Positions 27,461 through 52,242 of a stretch of DNA of 64,000 nt are shown piece after piece; the first letter of the stretch is position 1; the number at the start of each line of letters is the position of its first letter. This DNA is from Escherichia coli (GTDB lineage Bacteria > Pseudomonadota > Gammaproteobacteria > Enterobacterales > Enterobacteriaceae): the NCBI RefSeq assembly GCF_009931435.1, contig NZ_CP043414.1; one strand, 5' to 3'. Position numbers and translations under genes: made by a program. The notes beneath the pieces are model-generated. The model had not been told where the DNA came from and searched no databases. It saw only the letters and a list, made by a program, of their open reading frames with translations.

Positions 27461-27653
27461 TCACAACCCGAAGATGTTTCTTGCGATTCATCATCGTGTT
27501 GCGAAAATTTGAGAGACTCACGAACAACTTTCGTTGTTCAGTGTTTCAATTTTCAGCTTGATCCAGATTTTTAAAGAGCAAATATCTCAAACGTCACCCG
27601 AAGATGAGTTTTGAGATATTAAGGCAGGTGACTTTCACTCACAAACCAGCAAG

Positions 27654-29559: not shown

Positions 29560-29800
29560 GATTGTCTGATAAATTGTTAAAGAGCAGTGCCGCTTCGCTT
29601 TTTCTCAGCGGCGCGGGGTGTGCATAATACGCTTTCCCGCTACAGAGTCAAGCATTTTTTTGCTTTTCTCTGTCGAGATTCTCAGGAGAACCCCGCTGAC
29701 CCGGCGGCGTGTTTGCCGTTGTTCCGTGTCAGTGGTGGCGCATTATAGGGAGTTATTCCGGCCTGACAAGAGGAAATTTAAAATAATTTTCCGAATGCGC
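29560..29800 (-). promoter_or_regulatory. rrnB P1 and P2 promoters with UP element and boxA antiterminator
   Basis: On the transcribed strand: P1 CTTGTCAGGCCGGAATAACTCCCTATAATGCGCCACCACTG preceded by the AT-rich UP element; P2 TTGACT...TATTATGCACACC; boxA TGCTCTTTAACAATTTATCA at about 29567-29586. Confidence 0.8.
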
Positions 29801-29814
29801 AACATTCAACCAAA

Positions 29815-30672
29815 TCAGTCTGAAACTGCCAGTTTTTCGAGCGTTTTGAAGCCGTAACGCTGTAAAACGGGTAATAACTGTTCAGCTTCTGGCGTCATGT
29901 CCATGCAAAAGGCAATATTCGCATCGGCGGATTTTGCATCCGGGGCTTCATGTTCTAACAACCAGGCCGTTCGGCGAGCAATCGCAGCGCCTGAATCCAC
30001 CAGCCGTGTTCCCTCTGGCAGTACCTGTAACAGTTCTTCTTGTAGTAGAGGGAAATGGGTACACCCCAGTACAACGGTATCTGGCGGCTCTTTCATTCTT
30101 AACCACGGACGCAAGATACGTTTTAGCGCATCCAGAGAAACATCTTCGCCATGCAGCTTCGCTTCAGCCAACTCAACCATCTCTGCCGAGCCCAGCATTT
30201 CTATCTGGCATTCATTAGCGAAACGCGTGATCAGCTCATGAGTATAAGAACGTTTAACTGTTCCGCGGGTTGCCAGTAATCCGACAATGCCATTAGCTGT
30301 CAGACGTGCCGCTGGCTTAATTGCCGGAACGACACCGACAACCGGGAACGCAAACTTCTCGCGTAATGCAGGAAGTGAAACGGTACTGGCGGTGTTGCAA
30401 GCGACCACTGCCAGCGCAAGGGGATAGCGTTCTTGCACTGCGGTGACAATTGCCACCACTCGCTCAACAATAAACTCTTCGCTTTTTTCGCCATACGGGA
30501 AAGCGACGTTATCGAAAGCATAAATGTAATGGAGATCCGGTAAGAGATGCCGGATCTCGTCATAGACCGACAACCCACCAACGCCGGAGTCAAACACCAG
30601 CACGGTGGGACGTGGTTCAGAAGGTGTAGCTGCCAGACAAGGTGTATTCCCGTCCTGCAGTTTGGTAGCCAT
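29815..30672 (-). CDS. murI: Glutamate racemase MurI
   Basis: Track ORF 29815..30684; homologous start MATKLQDGNTPCLAATPSEPRPTVLVFDSGVGGLSVYDEI...; 5' end overlaps the btuB 3' end. Confidence 0.93.
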   Translation of the reverse strand: MATKLQDGNTPCLAATPSEPRPTVLVFDSGVGGLSVYDEIRHLLPDLHYIYAFDNVAFPYGEKSEEFIVERVVAIVTAVQERYPLALAVVACNTASTVSLPALREKFAFPVVGVVPAIKPAARLTANGIVGLLATRGTVKRSYTHELITRFANECQIEMLGSAEMVELAEAKLHGEDVSLDALKRILRPWLRMKEPPDTVVLGCTHFPLLQEELLQVLPEGTRLVDSGAAIARRTAWLLEHEAPDAKSADANIAFCMDMTPEAEQLLPVLQRYGFKTLEKLAVSD

Positions 30673-32455
30673 AGACTGTCTCATAATCTTTGTCGAACAG
30701 GTTGGCTATTTTACCACGAACTGTCAGGTGAGAGGTGACCGGATACGCAACCGCAAGATCCCACACACTCAGTCCCCCCATTTTCACCCTACGGGCATTG
30801 TCAAAGTCGTAATCGTATCGCTCACCGATGTACTGATACGTAACATCCCATCCAAGCTCATAAATCTCACCGCTCAACTCATATTTTACCTGCTGTTTTG
30901 CGCGACGATAGAGTTGCTGATCAGTTTCATCATCGCGGGGGTCAACATACTGCAACGTCAAACGATGATCGACTGGACCAGTTATGAGATTACCCGTCCA
31001 TTCAAGGCCCTTAATTGTCGCGGATTTGACGTTAAAATAGGTATTTTTGTTGTAGTCAATCAGATTCTGGATTTTGTAGTGATAGGTCGACAAGCGCCAG
31101 TCAACTGGACCGGTTAGGCCTTCTAATCCAGCCTCCCATTGCTTAGATTCTTCTGGCTTCAAATTAGGGTTAGAAGCAATACCGAATCGCTCTGCGCCAA
31201 ATTGTTGACCAAGCGAAGGAGCCAGGAAACCTGTTCCATAGGAAAGCGTTACTTTGTAATTATCAACAAACTGCCATCCTGCCGCCGTTTGCCAAGTACC
31301 ATGCCAGCCGAACTGACCATCGTGATCCTCACGACCAGAGGCTTCCAGCGTGACGTTGTCAATTTGCTGCTGCCCGGTCAGATAAAGCCCGGTGTTGTTG
31401 CGCTTATAGTTATCTGTGCCATAAGCACCGAAGGACATCAGTTTTTCCTGTTTCCAGTCCGCTCCTGCGCTGATAGCACCATGTCCAACAATGACATTGT
31501 TACCCCACTGGATATAACGTTGCTCCATATCATCAAGAGTATAACCTGACGCGTAACGTCTAGCCTGACTGCTGTAGTTGTAGTCCTTAATGCGCTGATA
31601 ATTTGCAACCAGCTGAGAAGAATAGATCCCCGAATTAAAACGCAACCCCGTATCCCACGACTGCGTATAATTTTGATGCTCGTCATTGCCGCCATCATAT
31701 CCCCAGTTCCCCTGGTCGTAATCAGCATTACTGGCATAACCATAACCACGGAAGTAACCATCAAACTGATCGTTAAATTTGTGCTCAATTCCGCCCCAGA
31801 ACAGCTTGTTGCGATAACCATCGCGATCGCTATCTCCGCTATAGCTTGAGTATGGCTGGATGTTGAAACCTTTGGTCGTTTGATAAGCCCCTGCAGCAGT
31901 CACGACCGTGTCACCAAAACGCTGACGGTAAGTACCATCGTATTGCTGGTAACCTTTCGAACCAATACCGATATTAATCTGCGAACGCTCTTCATTCGTC
32001 ATAGTAATGATGTTGACAACACCACCAATCGCGCCAGAGCCATAAACTGCCGAGCGCGGACCGCGGATATATTCGATACGCTGGACCAGCGAGACCGGGA
32101 TCTGGTCAATCTCTGAGTTATTCGAAATACCAGGGCGTGCTACTGGAATGCCATCGACTAACACCAGAACGTGTTTCGCTTCAGTTCCCCGGATAAAAAG
32201 AGAAGAACTCTGCCCCATACCACCATTCTGTGCGACATCAACGCCAGGCAAGCGGCGCATCACATCCAGAACAGTTCTGGATTGCCAGCGTTCGATATCC
32301 TCACGCGTGACAATATCCGTCGGAGCCAGAACCGTATTGACCGGTTGCTGAAAACGGTTAGCAGTAACGACGAGAGTATCCGGGCTGGTATCCTGTGCCC
32401 AAGCGGAAAATGCCGTGACGGAACACGCCGTCAGCAGCGAAGCTTTTTTAATCAT
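30617..32455 (-). CDS. btuB: TonB-dependent vitamin B12 / colicin E / phage BF23 outer-membrane receptor BtuB (divergent allele)
   Basis: Track ORF 30617..32500; start at MIKKASLLTACSVTAFSAWAQDTSPDTLVVTANRF (signal peptide plus TonB box DTLVVTA); C-terminus ...VYGYQTAGREYTLSGSYTF; central barrel region differs strongly from the K-12 sequence as I recall it. Confidence 0.92.
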   Translation of the reverse strand: MIKKASLLTACSVTAFSAWAQDTSPDTLVVTANRFQQPVNTVLAPTDIVTREDIERWQSRTVLDVMRRLPGVDVAQNGGMGQSSSLFIRGTEAKHVLVLVDGIPVARPGISNNSEIDQIPVSLVQRIEYIRGPRSAVYGSGAIGGVVNIITMTNEERSQINIGIGSKGYQQYDGTYRQRFGDTVVTAAGAYQTTKGFNIQPYSSYSGDSDRDGYRNKLFWGGIEHKFNDQFDGYFRGYGYASNADYDQGNWGYDGGNDEHQNYTQSWDTGLRFNSGIYSSQLVANYQRIKDYNYSSQARRYASGYTLDDMEQRYIQWGNNVIVGHGAISAGADWKQEKLMSFGAYGTDNYKRNNTGLYLTGQQQIDNVTLEASGREDHDGQFGWHGTWQTAAGWQFVDNYKVTLSYGTGFLAPSLGQQFGAERFGIASNPNLKPEESKQWEAGLEGLTGPVDWRLSTYHYKIQNLIDYNKNTYFNVKSATIKGLEWTGNLITGPVDHRLTLQYVDPRDDETDQQLYRRAKQQVKYELSGEIYELGWDVTYQYIGERYDYDFDNARRVKMGGLSVWDLAVAYPVTSHLTVRGKIANLFDKDYETVYGYQTAGREYTLSGSYTF

Positions 32456-32700
32456 TGTAAAGCATCCACAATAGAAGAAGGATGCCGCAGGCTTCATCAA
32501 TATTACGCGATGATGAGAACCAGATGCGACGTTAGCCGGCAGGTCTTCGGGCTTGGAGGGGTATATAAAATACTAAGAGATGATGACTTCCCACCGGATG
32601 GCAGTGTCCGCATAACGCAATCATCGCACCTTTCCTTACCGCTGCGCGTCAGCTCCAGATTTGCACTGGATTCCCTATTAACTCACAGGACCGGCGAGTG
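32456..32700 (-). promoter_or_regulatory. Cobalamin (B12) riboswitch in the btuB leader
   Basis: About 240 nt leader on the minus strand matches the btuB 5' UTR (GCCGGTCCTGTGAGTTAATAGGGAATCCAGTGCGAATCTGGAGCTGACGCGCAGCGGTAAGGAAAGGTGCGATGATTGCG...). Confidence 0.85.
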
Positions 32701-32823
32701 GATGCTACAGGTTGTAACAAGTTGCTGTCCAGACGTAGCTCACAAATAGGAATACATCAAGATCTGGACATCTGATGAGCAATCCCTACAATCGCCGCGT
32801 ACATTTCATTTTCAGGATACATC

Positions 32824-33924
32824 ATGACCCCCGAACACCTTCCAACAGAACAGTATGAAGCGCAGTTAGCCGAAAAAGTGGTACGTTTGCAAAGTATGAT
32901 GGCGCCGTTTTCTGACCTGGTTCCGGAAGTGTTTCGCTCGCCGGTCAGTCATTACCGGATGCGTGCGGAGTTCCGCATCTGGCACGATGGCGATGACCTG
33001 TACCACATCATTTTCGATCAACAAACCAAAAGCCGCATCCGTGTAGATAGCTTCCCCGCTGCCAGTGAACTCATCAACCAGTTGATGACGGCGATGATTA
33101 CGGGTGTGCGTAATAATCCCGTTCTGCGCCACAAGCTATTCCAGATTGATTACCTCACTACGTTGAGTAATCAGGCGGTGGTTTCCCTGCTGTACCATAA
33201 AAAGCTGGATGACGAATGGCGTCAGCAGGCGGAAGCTCTGCGCGATGCGTTGCGCGCACAAAATTTAAATGTGCATCTGATTGGTCGGGCAACGAAAACC
33301 AAAATCGCGCTGGACCAGGATTACATCGACGAACGTCTGCCGGTCGCAGGGAAAGAGATGATCTACCGTCAGGTAGAAAACAGCTTTACCCAGCCGAACG
33401 CGGCGATGAATATTCAGATGCTGGAATGGGCGCTGGACGTCACCAAAGGCTCAAAAGGCGATTTACTGGAGCTGTACTGCGGCAACGGTAACTTCTCATT
33501 AGCCCTGGCGCGCAATTTTGATCGGGTATTAGCCACCGAAATCGCCAAGCCTTCAGTCGCTGCCGCGCAATACAACATTGCCGCTAACCATATTGATAAC
33601 GTACAAATTATTCGTATGGCGGCAGAAGAATTTACTCAGGCGATGAAGGGTGTGCGCGAGTTTAACCGCTTGCAAGGGATCGATTTAAAGAGTTATCAAT
33701 GCGAAACCATTTTTGTCGACCCGCCGCGCAGCGGTCTGGACAGTGAAACCGAGAAAATGGTGCAGGCGTATCCACGTATTCTGTATATCTCCTGCAATCC
33801 GGAAACGTTATGCAAGAATCTGGAAACATTAAGCCAGACGCACAAGGTTGAACGTCTGGCTCTATTTGATCAGTTCCCCTACACGCACCATATGGAGTGC
33901 GGCGTATTACTGACCGCGAAGTAA
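32824..33924 (+). CDS. trmA: tRNA (uracil54-C5)-methyltransferase TrmA
   Basis: 366 aa [58 protein letters not shown]... Confidence 0.97.
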
Positions 33925-37700: not shown

Positions 37701-37809
37701 GAAACGGAGCGGCACCTCTTTAACCCTTGAAGTCACTGCCCGTTTCGAGAGTTTCTCAACTCGAATAACTAAAGCCAACGTGAACTTTTGCGGATCTCCA
37801 GGATCCGCT
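37701..37809 (+). ncRNA. oxyS: OxyS small regulatory RNA
   Basis: GAAACGGAGCGGCACCTCTTTAACCCTTGAAGTCACTGCCCGTTTCGAGAGTTTCTCAACTCGAATAACTAAAGCCAACGTGAACTTTTGCGGATCTCCAGGATCCGC followed by a T-run; matches oxyS; divergent from oxyR. Confidence 0.9.
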
Positions 37810-39205: not shown

Positions 39206-40417
39206 TTACCAGTTCCACAATGTGCCATCTTCCAGTCGTGCGACGGGGAGATACGCCGGGTCATACGGATATTTCGCCGCCAGTTTCTCATCGAAAGAAA
39301 TACCCAGCCCCGGTTCATCGCCTGGGTGCATATAACCTTCATCGAAGCGCCAGCTGTGCGGGAAGACTTCAAGCATTTGTTCGGAATAGCCCATGTACTC
39401 CTGAACACCAAAGTTTGGCACCCAGAGGTCAAAATGCAGCGCCGCCGCATGACAAACAGGCGATAAATCTGAAGGGCCATGCGAACCGGTACGTACCTGA
39501 TAAAGCGATGCAAAATCGGCAATCCGTCGCATCCCGGTAATGCCGCCTGCATGGGTAATCGTCGTGCGAATATAGTCAATCAGCTGCTCTTCGATTAACT
39601 GCTTGCAGTCCCAGATACTGTTAAACACTTCACCGACCGCAATCGGCGTCACAGTATGCTGGCGAATCAGACGAAAACATTCCTGGTTCTCGGCAGGCGT
39701 CGGATCTTCCATCCACAACAGGCGGTAATCCTCAATGCTCTTCCCAAAGCGCGCCGCTTCGATAGGAGTCAGGCGATGGTGCATGTCATGCAACAGATGT
39801 TCGTTAAAACCGAACTTATTACGCACCGCTTCAAATAACTTCGGTGTAAAATCGAGATACTTTTCTGAAGACCACAACTGCTCTTCCGGCCACAGGCCTT
39901 TGGTTGCCGGTTCATACGCCAGTCCTTTGCCCTTCGCCAGGCCATAAGTGGTTTGCATACCCGGTACACCGCACTGCACACGAATCGCCTTAAAGCCCAT
40001 CTGCTGGTGCTTTGCATAGTCTTCAAGGACTTCATCAATCGTGCGCCCGGTGGTGTGGCAATAAACCATCACGCCTTCACGAGAAGCCCCACCAAGCAGT
40101 TGATACAATGGCATATTTGCCGCTTTGGCTTTGATATCCCACAACGCCATATCAATGGCAGAAATGGCCGACATCGTGACGGGGCCACGTCGCCAGTAAG
40201 CACCTTTATAAAAGAATTGCCAGATATCTTCGATACGGCTGGCATCGCGGCCAATTAATTGTGGACAAAGATGATCTTTCAGATAAGAAGCGACCGACAA
40301 TTCGCGACCATTTAATGTGGCATCTCCCAATCCACAAATTCCGCTTGCAGTGGTTATTTTAAGCGTAACGAAATTACGTCCTGGGCAAGTAACAAAAACA
40401 TCTGCAGCAATAATTTT
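39206..40417 (-). CDS. Enolase-superfamily dehydratase, D-mannonate dehydratase (ManD/RspA-like) subgroup
   Basis: Track ORF 39206..40480; homologous start [59 protein letters not shown]...; very similar to E. coli RspA as I recall it. Confidence 0.85.
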
Positions 40418-40768
40418 CATTATTGCAATCTCCTGTGTTGTAAATAGACGCTTCAAACTTAATTTTACGCCTACTACCATACAAGAGAGAAAGGGCGATT
40501 ATTCAACCGTGATCACATTAAAAATAAAAATTTCCGCCGAGGAACAAAAATATCCTCAAATCTCACCTACACTATTAACTACCATCGTTAAAACAACGTG
40601 TTAAATAATCACATAACAAATTCCTTTAAGGAAAGGAGTTATAACAACAACAAAAGATAATCATATTTTACTTAATTCAATACGTATCGATAGGTTTATT
40701 TAAAAAGGATTTTTCGGAATGAGAGATGAAAAGAAGATACACAAGCAGGAAGAAATACGATTAATATT

Positions 40769-40904
40769 AGTTGCGGTAAGGGTAGCCGTTCCTCCCTTCC
40801 GCAACCCATTAACCGTTGAAGTCACAGACTATTTCAGGCATTTCTCAACTCAAAATAACGACAGCCAACGTGAACTTTATGGCTCTCCAGGATCTGCTTT
40901 GTTT
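40769..40904 (+). ncRNA. oxyS-like element: diverged second copy (paralog or relic) of the OxyS sRNA
   Basis: AACCGTTGAAGTCACAGACTATTTCAGGCATTTCTCAACTCAAAATAACGACAGCCAACGTGAACTTTATGGCTCTCCAGGATCTGCTTTGTTTT aligns at about 80 percent identity by eye to oxyS 37722-37817; a 5' stem-loop and a TAATAT -10-like box sit upstream; terminator stem is degenerate. Confidence 0.5.
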
Positions 40905-40908
40905 TCCA

Positions 40909-42387
40909 TCAAACAACGGAGCTCAGCGCACTGGCTACCTGTTTAAAGCGAGCAAACCGTCGCCTGAGCATGTGTGCTTTTTCTACATTCGGTTCAAGAC
41001 GAATCACGTTGAGCTGCGTAGCCTTCATGGCCTGTTTGAATCCAGAATAAGCCCCTCCTCCTACTGCCGCACACATTGCAGCCGCTCTACAACCTGACTG
41101 TTCAATATCGACAATTTCAAGAGGCATTTTGCTGGCATCACAAAACATCTGCATCCAGATTCTGGAATGCGTTGGCCCGCCAGAGAAACGAATCGTTTGC
41201 AATGACTTATCAATCTCAATAAGACGGTCCTGATGCAACAAATGAGAAAAGACAACGCCCTGATAAATAGCGTACACCAAATCTTCTCTTTTATGATGCC
41301 CACACAGCCCCAAAAATCCCCCGCTTAATGCCTCATGGTAATTCGAGCCAAACAACCACGGGAAAAAGAGAATATCATTCTGTTTCTCATACCCTCGTTC
41401 CACCCACTCATTAATCACCCGATAACTGTCAGGAAGACCCGGTAAAAATTGCTGCAAGAACCATGTTAAATTACTGGCTGATGTAGGGCTTCCCTCATGG
41501 GCGAAAAATGTACCTGGAATGCTAAATTTCCCCCATACATAGGGATAATCAGAAGGAATAATGCGATCAAAGATTCGCGTTGCAATTGACCAGGTGCCAG
41601 CAACCGCACTTAACGTTGTACTGTCATAGATGCCAGAAGTGAGCGCCGCACCAACGACATCAAAAACACCACCAAAAACAGGCGTTCCGGCGAGAAGCCC
41701 ACATTGGCTGGCTGCTTCAGATGTCACAAACCCAGCTAAATCAGCGGAGCCAATAATATCGGGAACCTTACCCGCAACTTCCTTAATCTCAAATAGGCGA
41801 AAAAGTTCAGCATCATAAGCACTGGTATATTGATTATAAAAATTACTGCCTGAAATATTGGTTTCTTCACAAGCCAGTTTGCCAGTAAGCCGTGAACGTA
41901 TGTAATCATGAACCATCAAAATGGTTCCGATGCGGCCATAATTGTCAGTCTCATGTTTTTTCAACCAATGCAATAGTGCTACAGGGTGCGATGGCCAGAG
42001 CTGTTGCAGACTACGGTGATAACTTTCGCGGTCAATTCCTTGTTCTTTCCAGCTTGCAACCAGTTGTTGTGCGCGAGAATCAGAGGAAACAATGCCGTGT
42101 CGTAAGGGCTTACCTTGCCGGTCGAGCAGGTACAAACCTTTACCATGAGCAGAAAAACTGATGCCATCAATCTGACTCGCAGTAATATTGTTATCTGACA
42201 TCGACAGTGAAATGACCTGGCACGTTACCTTCCATAACGCCTCCATGTCGCGTTCGCAAAAACCAGGACATGGGCTTAACAGAGGTAACGCCTGCGAAGA
42301 GACACCTATTTCACGTCCTTCTGCCGTATAAATTCCCGCTTTGGTTTCTGTACCACCTAAATCGACACCAATAAAATACCGCTCCAT
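40909..42387 (-). CDS. FGGY-family carbohydrate kinase (L-xylulose/3-keto-L-gulonate kinase LyxK-like)
   Basis: 492 aa MERYFIGVDLGGTETKAGIY... with FGGY N- and C-terminal signatures (HDY..., SGGPTHSRIWMQM); family assignment confident, substrate not. Confidence 0.85.
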   Translation of the reverse strand: MERYFIGVDLGGTETKAGIYTAEGREIGVSSQALPLLSPCPGFCERDMEALWKVTCQVISLSMSDNNITASQIDGISFSAHGKGLYLLDRQGKPLRHGIVSSDSRAQQLVASWKEQGIDRESYHRSLQQLWPSHPVALLHWLKKHETDNYGRIGTILMVHDYIRSRLTGKLACEETNISGSNFYNQYTSAYDAELFRLFEIKEVAGKVPDIIGSADLAGFVTSEAASQCGLLAGTPVFGGVFDVVGAALTSGIYDSTTLSAVAGTWSIATRIFDRIIPSDYPYVWGKFSIPGTFFAHEGSPTSASNLTWFLQQFLPGLPDSYRVINEWVERGYEKQNDILFFPWLFGSNYHEALSGGFLGLCGHHKREDLVYAIYQGVVFSHLLHQDRLIEIDKSLQTIRFSGGPTHSRIWMQMFCDASKMPLEIVDIEQSGCRAAAMCAAVGGGAYSGFKQAMKATQLNVIRLEPNVEKAHMLRRRFARFKQVASALSSVV

Positions 42388-42403
42388 GATCCCTCCTTAG
42401 TTT

Positions 42404-43267
42404 CTAAATATTATCCCAGCCGGCAAGGCGCATTTTCTCTTCAATCCATTGACGTGCATGAATAATTTCTAATAGAGGTTCCGTCGCTTTTTCTGTCCAC
42501 ATTTCTATCAGAAACGTTCCGCGATAATTAAGATTACGCAGGATCTTAAATAATTTAATAAAATCTACACACCCTTCACCAAAAGGAACGTCACGAAATT
42601 GCCCTGGAGAATCAGGCGTTACTGGGTACGTATCTTTAAGATGGATTGCGGCAATTCGATCAATCCCCTTTACCAGCTCACTTTCCAGTTCATTACCCCA
42701 TGCGGTCAGATTGCCAACATCCGGATAAACGGTAAACCAAGGGGAATTAATTTTTGTATCCAGGACTTTCCATTTACTAATAGAATTAATAAATGGCGTA
42801 TCCATGATCTCTACAGCACACATAACTTGTGCCGCTGCGGCCTGTTCAGCTGTCCAGGCCATCGCATCTTCAAACCAGGCGATAGTTTCTTCATTCTGCG
42901 GCTCATAATAAACGTCATAGCCTGCCAGTTGGATTGTTCGAATCCCCAAATCCTGCGCCAGGCGTAACGCCTTCAACATAATCGTACGTGCCTGCTGACG
43001 AGTATCTCTATCATGGCTACCAAATGGAAAACGCCGGTGAGCAGACAGGCACATTGTCGGAATACGGATCCCCGTTTGCTGAATGGCGCTAATAAGCTCC
43101 ATACGCTCGGTGAGCGACCAGTCCAGGCGGGCGAGTCGTTCATCATTCTCATCTACCGACATCTCAACAAAATCAAAACCGCAAGATTTAGCCAGGGCTA
43201 GTTTCTCTACCCAACTGGTATTCCTGGGTAGCGCTTTTTCATAAATACCTAACGGGTGGCGTCGCAT
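42404..43267 (-). CDS. Sugar-phosphate 3-epimerase of the xylose-isomerase-like TIM-barrel family (L-ribulose-5-phosphate 3-epimerase SgbU/UlaE-like)
   Basis: 287 aa MRRHPLGIYEKALPRNTSWVEKLALAKSCGFDFVEMSVDENDERLARLDWS...IRTIQLAGYDVYYE...HLKDT...FLIEMW; close resemblance to SgbU/UlaE as I recall them. Confidence 0.8.
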   Translation of the reverse strand: MRRHPLGIYEKALPRNTSWVEKLALAKSCGFDFVEMSVDENDERLARLDWSLTERMELISAIQQTGIRIPTMCLSAHRRFPFGSHDRDTRQQARTIMLKALRLAQDLGIRTIQLAGYDVYYEPQNEETIAWFEDAMAWTAEQAAAAQVMCAVEIMDTPFINSISKWKVLDTKINSPWFTVYPDVGNLTAWGNELESELVKGIDRIAAIHLKDTYPVTPDSPGQFRDVPFGEGCVDFIKLFKILRNLNYRGTFLIEMWTEKATEPLLEIIHARQWIEEKMRLAGWDNI

Positions 43268-44343
43268 TATTTTCCCTCACGAGTGATCAATTGTTGTTGA
43301 AAGATTTTCCGGCTCTTATTCATGTCACGCTGCAACTGCCATTTTTGTTTGATGAATTTAAATGCCAGTGCGGCGATCAATGTGATCCCCCATACCGCCA
43401 GATTGAAATGCAAACTAAGTCCCAACAGACTAAGGCCGGTAGCAATAACCTGAAGCACAAGTAAGGCACAAAAAACATGACTGACTTTACCCGCCCCACC
43501 GAATGGATCTGTGCCTCCCAATACAATTGCAAGAACCGTCAAGAGCAGATAGGAATCGCCATAGCCCATACGCGCCGAATTAAATCGCGCGAGCATAATA
43601 AGACCTGCTAATACACACAACATGCTGGATATAGCATATATAGCAATTAATACGCGGTCGGTGCGAATACCGCTAAACCATGTGGCGTTAATATTACTGC
43701 CACACATATAAATCGTTTTTCCCGTACGGGTTTTGCCGAGGAACAGAGCTAAAGCAACGGTGGTGACGATAAAAATTATCATCGGTACTGGGATCCCCAT
43801 GATAACTTCAGACCCAATACTGCGGACTACTGGTGGCATACCACTTAAAGCTGCCCCCTTAGTCAGGTAAATACCGATACCACTAATAATGGTCATGCTA
43901 CCCAATGTGACCAAAATAGGGTGAGCGCCTATATGAGAAATAATTGACCCAGTAATAGCTCCAATGATGATGGCAATAAGCATCGCCCCGACAATAGCCA
44001 GGAAGAGCCAAAACAACTGACTACCTGTAGATGCATCTGCGGGTACATATTGAATCAACAGCCAGGCCATAAACAGGCTGGTCAGATTCGCAGTACCGAT
44101 GATTGCCAGATTGAGCCCCCCGCTCAACATGGGTATAAACATCGCAAACGTGAGCAACCCAAGCTCTGGCAATTGAAATGCAATGCTCAGAAAAGTATTG
44201 CCGGTGAAAAAACGCCCCGGCATTACCAGACTAAATAACACCACCGCAATAAAACATATTGATAATAAGCCTGAACTGGTACCATCTAGTGGAAAAAATA
44301 TCCGCTTGTTCATTTCGATCCTCCCGTTAGACGAAACCAACAT
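43267..44343 (-). CDS. ABC transporter permease (CUT2, RbsC/LsrD-like)
   Basis: 358 aa polytopic membrane protein; stop/start overlaps neighbours within the ABC operon. Confidence 0.8.
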   Translation of the reverse strand: MLVSSNGRIEMNKRIFFPLDGTSSGLLSICFIAVVLFSLVMPGRFFTGNTFLSIAFQLPELGLLTFAMFIPMLSGGLNLAIIGTANLTSLFMAWLLIQYVPADASTGSQLFWLFLAIVGAMLIAIIIGAITGSIISHIGAHPILVTLGSMTIISGIGIYLTKGAALSGMPPVVRSIGSEVIMGIPVPMIIFIVTTVALALFLGKTRTGKTIYMCGSNINATWFSGIRTDRVLIAIYAISSMLCVLAGLIMLARFNSARMGYGDSYLLLTVLAIVLGGTDPFGGAGKVSHVFCALLVLQVIATGLSLLGLSLHFNLAVWGITLIAALAFKFIKQKWQLQRDMNKSRKIFQQQLITREGK

Positions 44344-45319
44344 CAGTTTCTTTACGTTTTTTGTAATGGGTCACACAAATCGCCGAGACAATAACCACTC
44401 CAATAACGATATTGACGAAATAACTCGAGATGCCAATCAAATTAAGGCCGTTTTTAAGAATACCGATAAGAAATACGCCCATAAGCGTACCAATGACCGT
44501 ACCACGTCCGCCTGATAAACTGGCACCGCCCAATACCGCTGCAGCCAGCACATCCAACTCTCCGCCAACCAATGCATTCGGCACAACTTCACTCATACGA
44601 TAAGCTTGCAGCATTCCACCAATTGCTGCAGCGGCACCAAGATAACCATAAGCAAACAGATAAATTAGCGACACCCGAATCCCAATACGTCTTGCTGATT
44701 CGGTATTCCCTCCCACGGCATAAAGCTGACGCCCAATATGGGTTTTGTTCATTATCATCCACGTCAGAAATGCCATTCCCAGCATAACCACTAACGGTAA
44801 TCCGATCTGGTAATCTTCTCCGCCAAATTCAAAACTCAGGAAAGAACGCTGCGTAATCCACCAATCCGGTAAATCGTAAATACTGTGGCCATTAGTCAAC
44901 CACATCAACATACCGAACAGTAGCGACTGCATACTAATCGTAATGATGATGGAAACGACATTAAGGTAATAAATAAGAATAGCGTTTATCAAACCAAAAA
45001 TGATGCCAAGAAAAACAGCAAACACCAGACAGAAAAATGGATTTGATAGCGTTTCATTAAGCAGTAACGACGCCACAACATATTGCACAACCGAAGCTAC
45101 TGCTGCAAAAGAGATATCAATTCCGCCAGTAACCAATACGACAAATAATCCGAGGGCGAAAATACCCGTTACGGCATAACTTTCCGAGAGATCGAGCAAG
45201 TTCTGTATTGATAAAAACTCATCGCTCATGATGGAAAAAAATACCAGCATGAGAACAATGACCCATCCTAACCAAGCTTCGACTGAACGAGGAAACCGCA
45301 GCCGCATAAAGCTAACCAT
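44327..45319 (-). CDS. ABC transporter permease (CUT2, RbsC/LsrC-like)
   Basis: 330 aa polytopic membrane protein with GGIDISFAAV and GGxSLxGGRGT motifs typical of ribose-type permeases. Confidence 0.8.
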   Translation of the reverse strand: MVSFMRLRFPRSVEAWLGWVIVLMLVFFSIMSDEFLSIQNLLDLSESYAVTGIFALGLFVVLVTGGIDISFAAVASVVQYVVASLLLNETLSNPFFCLVFAVFLGIIFGLINAILIYYLNVVSIIITISMQSLLFGMLMWLTNGHSIYDLPDWWITQRSFLSFEFGGEDYQIGLPLVVMLGMAFLTWMIMNKTHIGRQLYAVGGNTESARRIGIRVSLIYLFAYGYLGAAAAIGGMLQAYRMSEVVPNALVGGELDVLAAAVLGGASLSGGRGTVIGTLMGVFLIGILKNGLNLIGISSYFVNIVIGVVIVSAICVTHYKKRKETDVGFV

Positions 45320-46829
45320 TAATCACCTCCGCCAACTGCTGCTCGGTATAATTCGAAGGCAACAGCTCATTAATAATCTTTCCGCGCTTCATATGAAAAA
45401 TACGATCGCAGTTATAATAAGCTTCTGGTGCTTCATCAGTAATTAATATCACTGAAATACCCACACCTGAAAGCCGATGAATAAGCTGGTAAATACTATC
45501 TTTTGCGCCAATATCTACACCTACCGTTGGCGCATCCAGAATTAAAACCTTAGGTCGTGTTAAAATCCATTTAGCCAGGACAACCTTTTGTTGATTGCCG
45601 CCAGATAGCGTTGAAAGTGGATTATTTGGATCGGTGACTTTAATATCCAAATCCTGGATCCACTCCTTGACTAAGGTTTCTTTTCGATTTTCATCAATAA
45701 ACCCCGATGCCGTCTTTAAACGATCCAGAATCGAGAGCACCATATTATCGCTGATAGATTGGGGTAATACGGCCCCCAGTGTCAGGCGATCTTCTGAAAC
45801 ATATGCTATTCCCAGTTTTACCGCATGCGTGTTGTCTTTAATTGTAACGGGCTTACCTTCCAGATAAATATCACCACTATCTGGTCGAGTAATACCGAAA
45901 AGACTCAATGCTAATTCAGTTCTCCCCGCACCAAGTAAACCACACAATCCCAGAACCTCGCCCTGGTGTAGTTTTAGAGAAACATCTTCAAATTGCCCTT
46001 TTCTGCATAATTTGTTTAGTTCAAGGACTACTTTGCCTTCAACGCTATTTGGTAGCTTCTTCTGGTGGACTATAGTTTTTCCGGTCATTAACTCAGTAAT
46101 ATCGCCCGGAGAAAGTTGATTGGCAGCCCACGTTCCAATTATCTCTCCATCACGGATGACCGTAATCCGATCTGAAATTTCCTTAACTTCATCAAGGCGG
46201 TGGCTAACAAAAACTACGGTAATATTTTTATCGCGTAAGTAATTCACTGTGCGTAGTAATTGATTAACTTCTGTACGCGTCAATGATGCCGTTGGCTCGT
46301 CCATGATGACTAACCGGGCATCGGCAATCAGAGCCCGGCAAATCGCGACCTGTTGGCGTTGTGCAATCGGCAAATGTTGTACTAACGCATCAGGATCGAG
46401 ATTGAATTGCAGCTCCTGAATTATTTTCTGCGATACATCTCGAAGTTGTTTTTTTCTGTGCAGCCCTAAATATCCCTTCAGGTTGTATTCAAAAGCGATA
46501 TTTTCAGCAACAGAAAGATTTGGGAATAAAGAAAGATCCTGATATATCACCTGAATACCCAGTTCCCGAGCTTTATCAGGAGAAAGACGAGTCCAGGACT
46601 TACCATCTATAATAATTTCACTTCCCGAATCAGGGACATAAACACCACACAGCGTTTTGATCAGAGTACTTTTACCACACCCATTCGCACCAGCAAGACA
46701 ATGAACCTCACCTTTATTTAAGGTAAGATTGATATTCTTTAGAGCCCTATGGCCACCGAAACTTTTCGTTAGTGACCTTAGCGTCACTAATGGTTGCTCC
46801 GCATTCTTCTCTATAATATGAGGCATCAT
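45312..46829 (-). CDS. Sugar ABC transporter ATP-binding protein with duplicated ABC domains (RbsA/LsrA-like)
   Basis: 505 aa; first Walker A GANGCGKST, LSGGNQQK-type signature, second degenerate P-loop GLLGAGRTE as in CUT2 ATPases. Confidence 0.85.
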   Translation of the reverse strand: MMPHIIEKNAEQPLVTLRSLTKSFGGHRALKNINLTLNKGEVHCLAGANGCGKSTLIKTLCGVYVPDSGSEIIIDGKSWTRLSPDKARELGIQVIYQDLSLFPNLSVAENIAFEYNLKGYLGLHRKKQLRDVSQKIIQELQFNLDPDALVQHLPIAQRQQVAICRALIADARLVIMDEPTASLTRTEVNQLLRTVNYLRDKNITVVFVSHRLDEVKEISDRITVIRDGEIIGTWAANQLSPGDITELMTGKTIVHQKKLPNSVEGKVVLELNKLCRKGQFEDVSLKLHQGEVLGLCGLLGAGRTELALSLFGITRPDSGDIYLEGKPVTIKDNTHAVKLGIAYVSEDRLTLGAVLPQSISDNMVLSILDRLKTASGFIDENRKETLVKEWIQDLDIKVTDPNNPLSTLSGGNQQKVVLAKWILTRPKVLILDAPTVGVDIGAKDSIYQLIHRLSGVGISVILITDEAPEAYYNCDRIFHMKRGKIINELLPSNYTEQQLAEVING

Positions 46830-46892
46830 AATATTCCTGAATACGACTAAAGGAATTCCGGGTCAAATTTGACCCGGTGATTTACGGTAAAA

Positions 46893-47897
46893 TTACAAGC
46901 CTAGCTTCACTAAACGTCGTGTATTTTCAAGATCGAGCTTTTCTGGATTATCACTATAAATAGTGTTGTTATTAACCTTGATCTCGCCCATATCACCGAT
47001 TTTTACACCGTCTTTAATAGGTTCACCGTTCATCATTGCCGTCGCAACCTGGACAAAAACCTTACCCGCAATCATAGGGTTTGAAATATATCCCCCATCA
47101 ATGGCACCTTTTTCGAGTAGCTTAATTCCCTGACCTGGAGTGAAGGTTCCAAAAACGCAAATTGCATCATTTTTCTTCCGCTTATCAATAGCACGCCCCG
47201 CACCAATTGGTCCTTGTGAACCAAATGACATAATGCCTTTAAGATCTTTATATTTAGACATTAAATCGTTCGTCGTGCGCATTGAATCATCCACCGACTC
47301 AGCAACACCAAAACGATCTTCAACCAACGTCATATTTGGATAATGTTCTTTTTGATAGGCAATCGCGGCATTGGCCCAGTCATTTACCAAAGGCACAGTC
47401 AGACTGCCGACAAACATGGCGTATTTACCTTCTTCGCCCATACACTTCGCCATATCTTTCATATGATTGGCACCCATTGTCTGGGTATTTAACAACTCAA
47501 AATCCCAATCTGCATTTTTTTGATCTGGTGATTCGTGGGTAATAACTTTAATACCGGCTTCTTGTGCACGCTTAAGTACAGGTTCAAGAACCTTTGCATC
47601 GTTAGGAACAACACCAATAACATCCACTTTTCGTGCAATTAAATCTTCAATCGCCCGAACCTGTTCAGCTGGATCTGCCGTTGTAGGGCCGACCTGCCAT
47701 GCATCAACCCCCAATAGTTTTCCTTCATTTTTAATGCCTTGTTCCATCACATTAAACCAGGGAATTCCACCGACTTTTACTACTACCCCCATCGTAAAAG
47801 GTTTATTCGCTTTTTGTGATGTTACAGTCTGATCAGCCCATGCAGCAGTGGAAGATAATACGGTAGCAATAAGGCAGGGTAAGATTAATTTTTTCAT
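46893..47897 (-). CDS. Periplasmic sugar-binding protein (PBP type I, LsrB/RbsB-like) with signal peptide
   Basis: 334 aa MKKLILPCLIATVLSSTAAWA (signal peptide) followed by a two-lobe sugar-binding fold pattern. Confidence 0.8.
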   Translation of the reverse strand: MKKLILPCLIATVLSSTAAWADQTVTSQKANKPFTMGVVVKVGGIPWFNVMEQGIKNEGKLLGVDAWQVGPTTADPAEQVRAIEDLIARKVDVIGVVPNDAKVLEPVLKRAQEAGIKVITHESPDQKNADWDFELLNTQTMGANHMKDMAKCMGEEGKYAMFVGSLTVPLVNDWANAAIAYQKEHYPNMTLVEDRFGVAESVDDSMRTTNDLMSKYKDLKGIMSFGSQGPIGAGRAIDKRKKNDAICVFGTFTPGQGIKLLEKGAIDGGYISNPMIAGKVFVQVATAMMNGEPIKDGVKIGDMGEIKVNNNTIYSDNPEKLDLENTRRLVKLGL

Positions 47898-48019
47898 CGT
47901 AATTTCCTTAAGAAATAGTTCAGGTGTCAGGAAAACTCGATATAATATCGACCTGACTATTTATATAATTTATAATCCCTTAGGCATTGATTAATAATTT
48001 AGACAATAAATAACGCCTA

Positions 48020-48829
48020 TTATTTATCAACCTCCACAATGTTTAATTGTGGAAATTGTGTTCGATACCGAGTATCTGTACAAACATTAGTCACCAGAAT
48101 ATCGATTTCATCCAGCGTGCATATTTTACTAAATGCATACTGTTCAAACTTAGTGGAGTCGACCAGCAATATTTTTTGTCCTGACACCTGAAGCATCACC
48201 TGTTTAAGTCTGGCATTAATTTCACTGCCATCGCGGACACCATTCCCCAGATTCAACCCCTGGCATGAAAAGAAAAAACTGTTGATTTGAAAATTTCGGA
48301 TCGCACTCTCTGCAACCGGGCCATGAAAATCATCATGTCGCTCAGAATACTCACCACCGATACCAATAATTCGAACTCGATCACGGCAAGCTAACGCCTG
48401 AATTATCCGTAATGAATTTGTAACTACGGTAACATCTATATCGGGAATTTGACGAGCTAAAAACCAACAAGTACTACTGTTATCCATTAAAATACAATCA
48501 CCAGGGTGAATAAATTGCAATGCGGCCTTCGCAATTCTGGCTTTTATATCAGGATTTTCTTCAGTCCGTTTACGGAATGATTCCGCACGATCGATACTAT
48601 TATCTTGCCACGCATTATCGGCGAGCATAACCGGAGCGCTATCAGATGAATCCAGAGCGACCGCGCCACCAAAGCTACGGATTAACTTTTTGTTGCGCTC
48701 CAGTACCGTTAAATCCCGACGAATTGTCTCAGGAGACGCTTTAAATAATCGTGATAATTCAGTTACCCGCACAGCACCTTGTTTTTGTACATGTGCGCAT
48801 ATCATTTTATGGCGCTCTGCCTGCAACAT
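48020..48829 (-). CDS. DeoR/GlpR-family transcriptional regulator
   Basis: 269 aa; N-terminal HTH (VTELSRLFKASPETIRRDLTVLE) and C-terminal DeoR sugar-phosphate-binding domain; first gene of the minus-strand operon. Confidence 0.85.
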   Translation of the reverse strand: MLQAERHKMICAHVQKQGAVRVTELSRLFKASPETIRRDLTVLERNKKLIRSFGGAVALDSSDSAPVMLADNAWQDNSIDRAESFRKRTEENPDIKARIAKAALQFIHPGDCILMDNSSTCWFLARQIPDIDVTVVTNSLRIIQALACRDRVRIIGIGGEYSERHDDFHGPVAESAIRNFQINSFFFSCQGLNLGNGVRDGSEINARLKQVMLQVSGQKILLVDSTKFEQYAFSKICTLDEIDILVTNVCTDTRYRTQFPQLNIVEVDK

Positions 48830-49282
48830 AGTATCGGTCCGTTATTATCAAATTAGCATGCTTATATAATTAACTGTTCCCTCATAAAATAAAGTGATAG
48901 GAATCAAGATTCATTTTATAATTATAATCGCAAACAGGAATGGTGATCTTTATCACAAATTAAATTGAGAACACTCTACTATTTGACATTACTTTGAGAT
49001 ATCGGTCACTAAATAAGTCTTATTCTGCCATCTAACGAAAAATTTAAATACAAAAACAAAAATAATCGGGCATAGCAATCGCTTCCATTCATGACCGAAT
49101 ACGCCCGAATAAAACCGTTTATACCCACTTATCCTCTTTCGTTGCCTTCTTACATGCCTTGAATATTTTACATTTCTTATATTCAGCGTAATTTAGGAAA
49201 CATAATTTATGAGCAAAAAAAGCCCAAACTCAAAAGTTAAAGTTTATTTATATAATACATACAGATTATCGTGGAGTTAAAA

Positions 49283-49975
49283 ATGGATATGCTAAAGGAA
49301 AAAGTTCTTGCTGCGAATTTATCATTACCCCTTCATCAGTTAGTGACGTTTACCTGGGGAAATGTTAGTGGTGTTGATCGCGAAAAAGGTGTCATGGTTA
49401 TTAAACCTTCTGGGGTCGAATACAGCCAAATGGGCATTGCAGATATGGTGGTAGTGGATTTACAAAGTGGTGAAGTTATTGATGGACACAGGAAACCCTC
49501 TTCAGACACCGATACTCATCTGGCGCTATACCGTGCTTTCCCGGATATTGGTGGTATCGTTCATACCCATTCCCGACACGCCACAATATGGGCTCAGGCC
49601 GGAAAAGATCTCACGGCCTTTGGGACAACCCACGCTGATTATTTCTACGGCACTATCCCCTGTACACGCCCCATGAAGGATGACGAAATTAATGGACAAT
49701 ATGAATATGAAACGGGGCGAGTGATTATTGAAACGTTCAGACAACGAGAAATATCTCCCGCTGACATTCCGGCTGTTTTAGTAAACAGTCATGGCCCCTT
49801 TGCCTGGGGAACTGATCCCGCGAACGCCGTGCATAACGCCGTTGTACTTGAAGAAATTGCCTATATGAATCTCTTTACACAACAACTACAGCCCCATCTT
49901 ACGGCTATTCAACAGCCTCTACTGGATAAGCATTTTTTACGCAAGCATGGTGCCAATGCTTATTACGGGCAGTAA
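49283..49975 (+). CDS. L-ribulose-5-phosphate 4-epimerase (class II aldolase fold; AraD/SgbE/UlaF paralog)
   Basis: Track ORF 49271..49975; about three-quarters identical by eye to AraD ([31 protein letters not shown]...[14 protein letters not shown]...HGPFAWG...[18 protein letters not shown]); start chosen by alignment, alternative ATGs at 49271 and 49289. Confidence 0.85.
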
Positions 49976-50024
49976 CCCTCTTAGCATGGCCTGGCGTTTT
50001 GCCAAGCCATAAATCGCCTAAGAC

Positions 50025-51398: not shown

Positions 51399-51458
51399 AA
51401 CTCTGTTTCCTTATTTTGAAATTCAATGCCAGAAAGCTACGTCTCCGGCCAACAAAAC

Positions 51459-52235
51459 TTAAGCTAAAATCCGCGTACCCATCGGCATACCGTTAAACAG
51501 TGCCGGAAGCTGTTCCGCATGACGCCAGGAAGCGATATCTACCGGGCGGCCCAGCGTGCGCGCAGCATCCAGCGCCGCGTTCACTTTCACTATCATGCCG
51601 TCAGTAATAATGCCCTGCTCAATCAGTTGTTCTGCTTTCGCGGCGGTCATTTCGGCAATACGTTGCCCTTTGCCGTCGAGAATACCGCTGACATCAGAGA
51701 GCAAAATCAGATCTGCGCCCAGCGTTGCCGCCAGCGCCGTCGCCGCCTGGTCGGCATTGACGTTCATCAGTTGCCCTTCGTCTGTTACGCCAATGGAGCT
51801 GACCACCGGCAGATAACCGTTCTCCAGCAATGTGTTGATAAGCTTAGGCGAACCTGGCTGCGCCAGTCCAACATGGCCTAACTCTTCATCGAGCTGGGTC
51901 ACTTTTACGCTGTCGCCGTCACCAAGAAACAGGCCTACGCCAGCAATCTGATGTTTCTTCGCCCACGCCAGCAAGGTTTTATTTGCCGTTCCCGCCAGCG
52001 CCCCGGTGATAATGTCTATCTGATCCGCAGGCGTCACCCGCAGGCCATTTTTCTTTTTCACCGGCAGATTCAGCCCTTTCATTAGTTCATCCACCACGCA
52101 GCCGCCGCCGTGAACAATCACCAGCGGACGCTGATGTGACTCACGATAATTCACCAGTGCGCTAAACAGACGTTCCAGCGCCTCTTCGCTATCCAACAGT
52201 ACGCCGCCCAGTTTGATAATTAATGGATTCATCAT
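51459..52235 (-). CDS. argB: Acetylglutamate kinase
   Basis: Track ORF 51459..52313; homologous start [45 protein letters not shown] (258 aa). Confidence 0.95.
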
Positions 52236-52242
52236 TGCACCC

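What the first reader, a model, noticed from the sequence alone, without database searches (positions are those of the whole stretch)
30617..32455. Mosaic btuB allele: conserved ends, strongly diverged barrel region
The signal peptide, TonB box, plug region and the last 45 or so residues match K-12 BtuB as I recall it, but much of the central region (for example ...NIITMTNEERSQINIGIGSKGYQQYDGTYRQRFGDTVV..., ...NADYDQGNWGYDGGNDEHQNYTQSW...) is very different from the K-12 sequence in my memory. BtuB is the receptor for phage BF23 and for E-group and A colicins, so allelic replacement of surface-exposed loops is plausible diversifying selection and may change phage or colicin susceptibility. The murI start overlapping the btuB 3' end is retained, which constrains that end of the gene.
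Basis: partly seen in the sequence, partly recalled or inferred. Interest (0 to 1): 0.55.

Follow-up and report, generated by a model that had tools for sequence, protein, structure and literature searches.

The report
Swapped vitamin B12 receptor allele (btuB)
This E. coli-like genome carries an intact vitamin B12 receptor gene whose whole middle is only about 52% identical to the laboratory-strain version and is DNA-identical to one found in Escherichia fergusonii, one case of a little-described swapping of deeply different btuB versions between gut bacteria that probably changes which phages and colicins can attack.

Summary
Window btuB (30617-32455, minus strand, 612 aa) is 58% identical to K-12 BtuB. 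The DNA is identical to K-12 for the first 105 nt and the last 149 nt. The 1.6-kb core between them is about 52% identical in protein, with saturated synonymous sites.

This is not local loop diversification. The whole core belongs to an ancient allele class. A tract of about 3.5 kb (trmA 5' end, riboswitch, btuB, murI) is 97-100% identical to E. fergusonii, while the rest of the window is a divergent E. coli-like backbone.

Escherichia holds at least five btuB classes with shared ends. Among 5,426 complete E. coli genomes, 91% carry the K-12 type, 5.2% a 627-aa type, 1.6% a sister 612-aa type, and none this subtype. E. fergusonii carries three of these classes.

Across 83 Enterobacterales loci, BtuB core identity barely tracks flank identity (Spearman 0.24).

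The gene passes the BtuB equivalog models and keeps the fold, Ton box and riboswitch. Altered phage and colicin specificity is inferred, not shown. The exact protein is already in public databases. I found no paper describing the polymorphism.

The parts
30617..32455 (-). btuB coding sequence, 612 aa, intact. Divergent '612-aa, fergusonii-subtype' allele.
   Evidence: ORF. NCBIfam BtuB equivalogs NF007926 (1054 bits, cut-off 836) and TIGR01779 (671 bits, cut-off 600). The exact protein is in public databases as P0121.
32351..32455 (-). 5' conserved arm: nt 1-105 of the CDS (signal peptide and Ton box), identical to K-12.
   Evidence: This stretch overlaps the published attenuator (+18..+48) and the OmrA pairing site (+71..+94) of btuB mRNA (PMC11162775). 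C. amalonaticus differs at 19 of these 105 nt.
30766..32350 (-). Divergent core (plug plus most of the barrel). About 52% aa identity to K-12 and about 100% nt identity to E. fergusonii CP057266.
30617..30765 (-). 3' conserved arm: last 149 nt (strands 21-22 and loop 11), identical to K-12. Includes the 56-nt overlap with murI.
   Evidence: Only 2 mismatches to C. amalonaticus in the last 108 nt.
32521..32710 (-). Cobalamin riboswitch in the btuB leader.
   Evidence: Rfam RF00174, 87 bits against a gathering score of 31.5. Its haplotype is shared with all 10 E. fergusonii loci and differs from K-12.
29815..30672 (-). murI (glutamate racemase). Its start overlaps the btuB 3' end. The sequence is E. 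fergusonii-like.
   Evidence: annotations of relatives. It is 97-100% identical to E. fergusonii but 87-97% to E. coli, including the window's nearest relatives. SNP blocks 30295-30358 and 29795-29905 are shared only with E. fergusonii.
29700..33230 (.). Approximate extent of the E. fergusonii-like recombination tract (murI, btuB, riboswitch, 5' end of trmA). One less similar patch lies at about 30380-30580.
   Evidence: SNP table; sliding identity.
32824..33924 (+). trmA, the divergently transcribed upstream neighbour. It holds the upstream edge of the shared tract.

Best explanation
The window carries a functional orthologue of the TonB-dependent cobalamin receptor BtuB at its normal trmA-btuB-murI position. 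It belongs to an allele class that is anciently diverged from the K-12 class.

The allele arrived by homologous recombination. A tract of about 3.5 kb (5' end of trmA, riboswitch, btuB, murI) matches E. fergusonii. It sits in a backbone that is a divergent E. coli-like lineage.

In Escherichia, at least five btuB core classes share identical ends: a 105-nt 5' arm and a 149-nt 3' arm. The 5' arm holds RNA regulatory elements. The 3' arm holds the murI start and the last barrel strands. These constrained arms and the conserved flanks give the homology that lets whole cores be exchanged like cassettes, within and between species.

Shown: the structure of the allele, its identity to the E. fergusonii copy, the allele classes and their frequencies, and the retention of BtuB-defining features.

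Inferred: the imported core keeps B12 uptake but presents a different outer surface, so it alters recognition by BtuB-binding phages and colicins. Also inferred: such enemies maintain the polymorphism.
For: What it is:
- It passes both BtuB equivalog models.
- The AlphaFold model (pLDDT 78.5, 22 strands plus plug) matches K-12 BtuB crystal structures at TM 0.82-0.91.
- The Ton box is identical. Y229, D230 and 4 of 5 cage aspartates are kept.
- The riboswitch is present.
- trmA-btuB-murI synteny holds across 80 Enterobacterales loci.

Replacement rather than local evolution:
- Identity steps are sharp.
- All structural compartments are diverged.
- pS is 0.82 against K-12, and dN/dS is 0.06 against the sister subtype.

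Donor:
- E. fergusonii protein P0127 differs by 1 aa.
- The DNA is 99-100% identical across btuB.
- All 10 E. fergusonii loci, whatever their btuB type, share the window's riboswitch and murI haplotypes. The window's closest E. coli relatives (2013C-4282, 24A16CRGN010) are K-12-like in murI and carry K-12-type btuB.

Backbone:
- About 95.4% identity to K-12, ST131 and O55:H7 over the arg-ppc region, and 90.7% to E. fergusonii there.

Polymorphism:
- Of 5,426 complete E. coli genomes, 4,953 carry the K-12 type, 284 the 627-aa type and about 88 the VCSW7 612-aa type.
- E. fergusonii has 614-, 627- and 612-aa types.
- ET245 (E. coli) against E. fergusonii 627-aa type gives dS 0.09. K-12 against E. 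fergusonii 614-aa type is saturated. Flanking genes give dS 0.18.
- Across the family, the correlation between flank identity and core identity is Spearman 0.24. Core identity ranges 48-100% among pairs whose flanking proteins are at least 97% identical.

Selective agents:
- BtuB is the most used protein receptor in a 193-phage screen.
- BtuB loop variation tracks T5-like phage sensitivity in Yersinia.
Against: - No phenotype was tested. B12 transport and changed phage or colicin specificity are inferences.
- One cage aspartate (D179) aligns to N, and several published B12-contact residues differ.
- A published phage infects hosts whose BtuBs are only about 68% identical, so allele class need not determine susceptibility.
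- dN/dS gives no sign of positive selection.
- The direction of transfer rests on flank haplotypes. The upstream flank haplotype is also shared by the window's E. coli relatives, so only the murI side discriminates.
- The whole neighbourhood is mosaic, so this tract could be one neutral import among many.
- The ultimate source of the 612-aa core is unknown. The nearest non-Escherichia relatives (Citrobacter amalonaticus group) are at dS about 2.
Confidence: 0.75

Rival explanations
1. In-situ diversifying selection: the gene diverged within E. coli because phages and colicins drove rapid change of surface-exposed loops.
For: Extracellular parts are the most diverged (45-50% identity; L2, L3 and L5 at 20-25%; indels confined to loops). 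BtuB is heavily used as a receptor.
Against: - The plug (69%), membrane strands (58%) and periplasmic turns (54%) are also strongly diverged.
- Synonymous sites are saturated.
- dN/dS is 0.06 between close subtypes, including the extracellular part.
- The same core occurs at about 100% nt identity in E. fergusonii and at 93% aa in Citrobacter.
- Identity breakpoints are abrupt.
Confidence: 0.03
2. Neutral introgression: the tract is one of many E. fergusonii or other imports in a highly recombining region. The btuB class difference has no adaptive significance for this lineage.
For: The neighbourhood is a patchwork. The tract extends well beyond btuB into murI and trmA. There is no positive-selection signal.
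Against: - Multiple deep classes persist at the same locus in many genera.
- Each class is nearly invariant within itself and shared across species. Drift alone does not easily give this pattern.
- Flanking housekeeping genes show nothing comparable.
Confidence: 0.15
3. Functional shift: the divergent core is a transporter with another substrate preference (for example other corrinoids) rather than an equivalent B12 receptor. The polymorphism would then reflect nutrient niche, not enemies.
For: Several B12-contact residues and one cage aspartate differ. Mobilised B12-transporter variation that alters competition is documented in gut Bacteroides (title and abstract of PMC8759732, listed).
Against: It passes the curated BtuB equivalog cut-offs and keeps the cobalamin riboswitch. 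It is the only btuB at the locus. The same class is the sole BtuB of Citrobacter, Klebsiella and other genera.
Confidence: 0.07

Closest known systems
E. coli K-12 BtuB (PDB 1NQE, 1NQH, 2GSK, 1UJW)
   Same: - Same locus, riboswitch and Ton box.
- Same fold (TM 0.82-0.91).
- Same NCBIfam equivalog.
- Identical first 35 and last 48 residues.
   Different: - The core is about 52% identical, with all compartments diverged.
- Loops L2, L3 and L5 are 20-25% identical.
- Indels lie in L2, L3, L7, L8 and L10.
- D179 aligns to N.
E. fergusonii BtuB, 612-aa type (P0127; CP057266.1)
   Same: One amino-acid difference (C11F in the signal peptide). The DNA is 99-100% identical across the gene and adjacent flanks.
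   Different: It sits in a genuine E. fergusonii backbone. yijD is 79-92% identical to the window, and a peptidase/MFS insert lies between sthA and fabR. It is a minority type in E. fergusonii (1 of 10 distinct loci).
E. coli 612-aa 'VCSW7' type and Citrobacter amalonaticus/farmeri/rodentium BtuB
   Same: Same length and same 90% protein cluster. Identity to the window is 94.8% (VCSW7) and 93% (Citrobacter) in protein.
   Different: dS is 0.41 to VCSW7 and about 2.0 to C. amalonaticus. Citrobacter has its own 5' end, with 19 mismatches in 105 nt.
Mosaic alleles made by interspecies homologous recombination (for example Neisseria penA; PMC10926701, listed)
   Same: A core gene partly replaced by a tract from a related species, with sharp breakpoints and a donor-identical sequence.
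   Different: Here the selective agent is presumed to be phages and colicins rather than antibiotics. The replaced unit is nearly the whole gene, and several old classes coexist.
Antigenic variants of the TonB-dependent transporter FrpB/FetA of Neisseria meningitidis (PDB 4AIP F3-3 and 4B7O F5-1, seen). From general knowledge: conserved-end, variable-centre genes such as fliC.
   Same: A nutrient receptor or surface protein with discrete allelic variants at one locus while function is kept.
   Different: In FrpB the variation is concentrated in one loop region (general knowledge, not tested here). In btuB the plug and membrane strands differ too.

Membership tests
BtuB (TonB-dependent cobalamin receptor) | Scores above the curated cut-off of the BtuB equivalog models | tested here: met
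   NF007926 scores 1054 bits against a cut-off of 836. TIGR01779 scores 670.6 against 599.7.
BtuB (TonB-dependent cobalamin receptor) | N-terminal plug inside a 22-stranded barrel, superposable on solved BtuB | tested here: met
   The AF2 model has 22 strands plus a plug. Best PDB matches are BtuB entries at TM 0.82-0.91.
BtuB (TonB-dependent cobalamin receptor) | Ton box (DTLVVTA) | tested here: met
   Identical to K-12 residues 6-12.
BtuB (TonB-dependent cobalamin receptor) | Cobalamin riboswitch in the leader and the conserved trmA-btuB-murI position | tested here: met
   RF00174 at 32521-32710. Synteny holds in 80 loci.
BtuB (TonB-dependent cobalamin receptor) | Calcium-binding aspartate cage and B12-contact residues | tested here: inconclusive
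   D193, D195, D230, D241, Y229, S65 and Q98 are kept. D179 aligns to N, and N72, S74, A231, Y232, Y233 and R243 differ. The cage residue numbers are recalled from memory. The contact list comes from PMC7360065.
BtuB (TonB-dependent cobalamin receptor) | TonB-dependent uptake of vitamin B12 | not testable with these tools
   Needs growth or uptake assays.
K-12-type receptor surface for colicins E/A and phage BF23 | Conservation of the extracellular loops that form the binding surface | tested here: not met
   Extracellular parts are 45-50% identical. L2 is 6/26, L3 is 5/23 and L5 is 5/20. Five loops carry indels.
K-12-type receptor surface for colicins E/A and phage BF23 | Actual binding or killing by these agents | not testable with these tools
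   Needs sensitivity assays. A cross-genus BtuB phage exists.
Recombinant (introgressed) allele | Abrupt identity breakpoints against the resident type | tested here: met
   Identity to K-12 is 100% up to nt 105 and from 149 nt before the end, and about 50-60% between.
Recombinant (introgressed) allele | A tract near-identical to another species while the surrounding genome is not | tested here: met
   Identity to E. fergusonii is 97-100% over about 29.7-33.2 kb, but 79-92% in yijD and 90.7% in argH-ppc.
Trans-species balanced polymorphism | The same allele classes segregate in more than one species | tested here: met
   The 612- and 627-aa types occur in both E. coli-like genomes and E. fergusonii, at dS about 0 and 0.09.
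Trans-species balanced polymorphism | Between-class divergence far exceeds species divergence at linked genes | tested here: met
   Core dS runs from 0.41 to saturated, against 0.18 for murI and trmA between K-12 and E. fergusonii.
Trans-species balanced polymorphism | Evidence that selection (for example negative frequency dependence) maintains the classes | not testable with these tools
   dN/dS is 0.06, which gives no positive-selection signal. Time series or experiments are needed.

The most novel reading that the evidence does not exclude
btuB is an ancient polymorphism that crosses species and genus boundaries throughout the Enterobacteriaceae. A handful of receptor 'serotypes', 50-80% identical to each other, are kept at one chromosomal slot by phage and colicin pressure. 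They are shuffled between species as cassettes. The RNA-regulatory 5' arm and the murI-overlapping 3' arm are frozen by other constraints and serve as built-in recombination arms. If this is right, btuB type would be a predictor of phage and colicin host range as basic as the O-antigen, contrary to the common statement that BtuB is 'highly conserved'.
Probability: 0.35. Interest if true: 0.65.

Novelty: new member of a known kind. Interest (0 to 1): 0.5.

Why it matters
BtuB is the receptor most often used by E. coli siphoviruses in a recent 193-phage screen. It is also the entry point for E-group colicins. Papers on phage cocktails describe it as highly conserved.

The data here show otherwise. 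About 9% of complete E. coli genomes carry a btuB core other than the K-12 type, including the model EPEC strain E2348/69. The 284 genomes with the 627-aa type and the ~88 with the 612-aa type (about 7%) have cores 52-58% identical to the K-12 receptor. The remaining ~100 genomes were not typed. These cores also move between Escherichia species.

If allele class governs adsorption, then receptor typing of btuB should enter phage-host prediction, phage-therapy design and colicin-based decolonisation. Results obtained with K-12 BtuB (structures, colicin complexes, RBP models) would not transfer to these strains.

The locus also gives a clean natural example of regulatory and overlap constraints fixing recombination arms around a variable cassette.

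Tried and rejected
1. Literature. Nine full-text searches looked for any description of btuB allele classes, mosaics, or balancing or diversifying selection in E. coli. None was found in the held library. The MRE600 genome paper mentions btuB only as the colicin E1 receptor. One DOI look-up for the calcium-site paper failed.
2. Exact-protein look-up of the E. fergusonii-specific peptidase, intended to sample other E. fergusonii btuB alleles, returned only the same sub-lineage. Look-up with YijD worked instead.
3. The genome-contig scan kept only the 80 loci most similar to the window protein. K-12-class representatives, including the E. coli, E. fergusonii and E. albertii species representatives, were cut off. 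Class A membership therefore rests on the protein search.
4. Considered and rejected: an assembly artefact or pseudogene. The ORF is intact, the exact protein is on at least 174 public contigs, and locus L010 is 99.8% identical over 10.6 kb.
5. Considered and rejected: a paralogue. There is a single copy at the orthologous site.
6. Considered and rejected: the window being E. fergusonii itself. It is 90.7% identical in argH-ppc and 79-92% in yijD.
Full report
**What is there**

The finding's coordinates hold an intact 612-codon ORF on the minus strand, window 30617-32455. Upstream lie a cobalamin riboswitch at 32521-32710 (Rfam RF00174, 87 bits) and the divergent trmA gene. Downstream lies murI (29815-30672), whose start overlaps the btuB 3' end by 56 nt, and then an rRNA operon. 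This is the canonical btuB locus.

**Checking the observation**

- Against K-12 BtuB the protein is 58.3% identical (353/606; PDB alignment).
- The first 35 and last 48 residues are identical to K-12.
- At DNA level, nt 1-105 and the last 149 nt have no difference from K-12. From nt 106 onward, mismatches occur every few bases.
- Sliding-window identity to K-12 falls from about 100% to 40-70% between window 32350 and 30766 and then returns to 100%.

I took strand positions from an AlphaFold model (pLDDT 78.5, 22 strands). The model superposes on BtuB crystal structures at TM 0.82-0.91. With that topology, identity to K-12 by compartment is as follows:

| Compartment | Identity to K-12 |
|---|---|
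| Plug | 69% |
| Membrane strands | 58% |
| Periplasmic turns | 54% |
| Extracellular strand extensions | 45% |
| Extracellular loops | 50% |

Loops L2, L3 and L5 are 20-25% identical. Indels lie in L2, L3, L7, L8 and L10.

**It is still BtuB**

- The protein exceeds the curated cut-offs of both NCBIfam BtuB equivalogs.
- It keeps the Ton box, Y229, D230 and four of the five cage aspartates. The cage residue numbers are from memory. The B12-contact list is from PMC7360065.
- It sits behind an intact riboswitch.
- trmA-btuB-murI synteny holds in 80 loci from Enterobacteriaceae through Yersinia, Serratia, Hafnia and Dickeya.

**Not loop diversification**

- Synonymous sites against K-12 are saturated (pS 0.82), with dN of 0.43 in the core.
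- Against the nearest E. coli subtype (strain VCSW7: 94.8% aa, 91.6% nt), dS is 0.41 and dN/dS is 0.06. The extracellular part gives 0.062.
- The core is therefore an old, purified lineage, not a recently accelerated one.

**Where it came from**

- The exact protein is already public (P0121, at least 174 contigs, labelled E. coli or 'MULTISPECIES Escherichia'). Locus L010 (OZ038830.1) is 99.8% identical to the window over 10.6 kb.
- An E. fergusonii protein (P0127) differs by one signal-peptide residue. E. fergusonii CP057266 is 99-100% identical in DNA across the whole gene.
- Ten distinct E. fergusonii loci were recovered through their YijD protein. Eight carry a 614-aa type, one a 627-aa type and one the window's 612-aa type.
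- All ten, whatever their btuB, match the window at about 100% over 33030-32500 and at 97-100% in murI.
- E. coli genomes are 87-97% identical to the window in murI. This includes the window's nearest complete relatives, 2013C-4282 and 24A16CRGN010, which carry K-12-type btuB.
- SNP blocks at 30295-30358 and 29795-29905 are shared only by the window and E. fergusonii.
- Outside this tract the window is not E. fergusonii: 79-92% in yijD and 90.7% in argH-ppc.
- The backbone is about 95.4% identical to K-12, ST131 and O55:H7 alike, and 97.8-98.6% identical to 24A16CRGN010. This marks it as a divergent E. coli-like lineage.
- The most economical reading is import of a tract of about 3.5 kb (roughly 29.7-33.2 kb) from an E. 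fergusonii strain that carried the 612-aa allele. Only the murI side discriminates direction, and the neighbourhood is generally mosaic.

**The wider pattern**

Among 5,426 complete E. coli genomes:

| btuB core type | Genomes | Share |
|---|---|---|
| K-12 type (at least 95% nt) | 4,953 | 91% |
| 627-aa 'ET245' type (all at least 99% identical; includes EPEC E2348/69) | 284 | 5.2% |
| VCSW7 612-aa type | about 88 | 1.6% |
| Something else or disrupted | about 100 | about 2% |
| The window's subtype | 0 | 0% |

- All Escherichia classes share the same 5' and 3' arms. Citrobacter amalonaticus, whose core is 93% identical to the window's, differs at 19 of the first 105 nt. The Escherichia alleles are therefore genuinely 'genus-type ends, class-type core'.
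- Divergence yardsticks: murI and trmA give dS of 0.18 between K-12 and E. fergusonii, and 1.1-1.6 between K-12 and C. amalonaticus.
- btuB core values: window against C. amalonaticus is about 2.0. K-12 against the E. fergusonii 614-aa type is saturated. E. coli 627-aa against E. fergusonii 627-aa is 0.09.
- Protein searches show two deep super-classes.
  - The K-12 class holds most E. coli, common Salmonella (87%), Enterobacter, Scandinavium and Cronobacter.
  - The other class holds E. fergusonii, the Citrobacter amalonaticus group, Lelliottia, Leclercia, Klebsiella pneumoniae (81%) and a 618-aa Salmonella type (79%).
- A neighbour-joining tree of cores scatters Escherichia, Salmonella, Citrobacter, Klebsiella, Enterobacter, Kosakonia, Kluyvera and Buttiauxella over distant clades.
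- Over 3,403 pairs from 83 loci, core identity correlates with flank-protein identity at only Spearman 0.24. Pairs with at least 97% identical flanks span 48-100% core identity.

**Why the ends are frozen**

Published work places three elements inside the early btuB coding sequence: a transcription attenuator (+18..+48), the OmrA sRNA pairing site (+71..+94) and the start of a Rho-dependent terminator region (+81..+210) (PMC11162775). The identical 105-nt arm covers the first two and the Ton box codons. The 3' arm carries the murI start and the terminal barrel strands. I infer that these constraints, together with the conserved flanks, supply the homology for cassette-like exchange.

**Function and consequences (inferred)**

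- B12 uptake is probably retained, given the membership results above.
- Recognition by agents that bind the K-12 surface is likely altered, because the loops are so different.
- Supporting context:
  - BtuB is the most used protein receptor among 193 typed coliphages.
  - BtuB loop variation tracks T5-like phage sensitivity in Yersinia.
- Counter-evidence: one phage uses BtuBs averaging about 68% identity across genera.
- Nothing here measures a phenotype.

**Novelty**

The protein is catalogued and correctly named in databases. Nine full-text searches found no description of btuB allele classes or their exchange. Several papers call BtuB highly conserved. The mechanism, homologous replacement of a surface-receptor allele, is a known kind. 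I therefore rate this a new member of a known kind. The family-wide cassette polymorphism is the more interesting possibility and remains open.

Noticed in passing
window 40000-60000 (arg-ppc core genes about 50025-60000): The backbone is about 95.3-95.6% identical to K-12, ST131, O55:H7 and other phylogroups alike. It is 98.6% identical to strain 24A16CRGN010. The window therefore comes from a divergent Escherichia lineage near the species edge, possibly a cryptic clade. This was not resolved.
   Followed up: partly
window about 40900-49980: An island of about 9 kb lies between manD and argH. It encodes an FGGY kinase, an L-ribulose-5-P 3-epimerase, a sugar ABC transporter, a DeoR regulator and an araD-like epimerase. 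Only 146 of 5,426 complete E. coli genomes cover at least 80% of this 20-kb stretch. Strain 2013C-4282 lacks the island.
   Followed up: no
window 33042-33100 (trmA): Five SNPs within 60 bp are private to the window and L010. They are absent from E. fergusonii, K-12 and the window's nearest relatives. This looks like a small separate recombination patch.
   Followed up: no
window 30380-30580 (murI 5' part): Inside the E. fergusonii-like tract, a patch of about 200 bp is only 89-95% identical to most E. fergusonii loci. It matches some other E. fergusonii and E. coli haplotypes better, giving a mosaic within the mosaic.
   Followed up: partly
L094-L103 (E. fergusonii loci): E. fergusonii is itself polymorphic for three btuB classes: 614 aa, 627 aa and 612 aa. 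Its majority 614-aa type is only 80-84% identical to K-12, with saturated dS, although flanking genes differ by dS of about 0.18.
   Followed up: partly
H152 (E. coli E2348/69, NZ_CP059840.2) and 283 other genomes: The model EPEC strain E2348/69 carries the 627-aa btuB type, which is 58% identical to K-12. All 284 copies are at least 99% identical to each other despite diverse hosts.
   Followed up: no
H106 (E. coli EC416, NZ_AP027404.1): A K-12-type btuB is split by an ISApl1 insertion. This is an example of receptor loss rather than replacement.
   Followed up: no
L012-L091 (Enterobacterales loci): Discordance between btuB core and flanks is common in other genera. Kluyvera, Buttiauxella, Klebsiella/Raoultella and Lelliottia/Enterobacter pairs have at least 95% identical flanks but 52-69% identical cores. 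K. spallanzanii against Kluyvera, and Salmonella diarizonae against C. portucalensis, have cores more similar than their flanks.
   Followed up: partly
(E. coli genome searches): A few btuB-like matches lie on plasmids: 3 places with the window allele as query and 2 with the K-12 core.
   Followed up: no
window 37701-37809 and 27468-27576: OxyS sRNA lies next to oxyR, and a StyR-44 element lies in the rRNA operon spacer. Both are ordinary and in their expected places.
   Followed up: no
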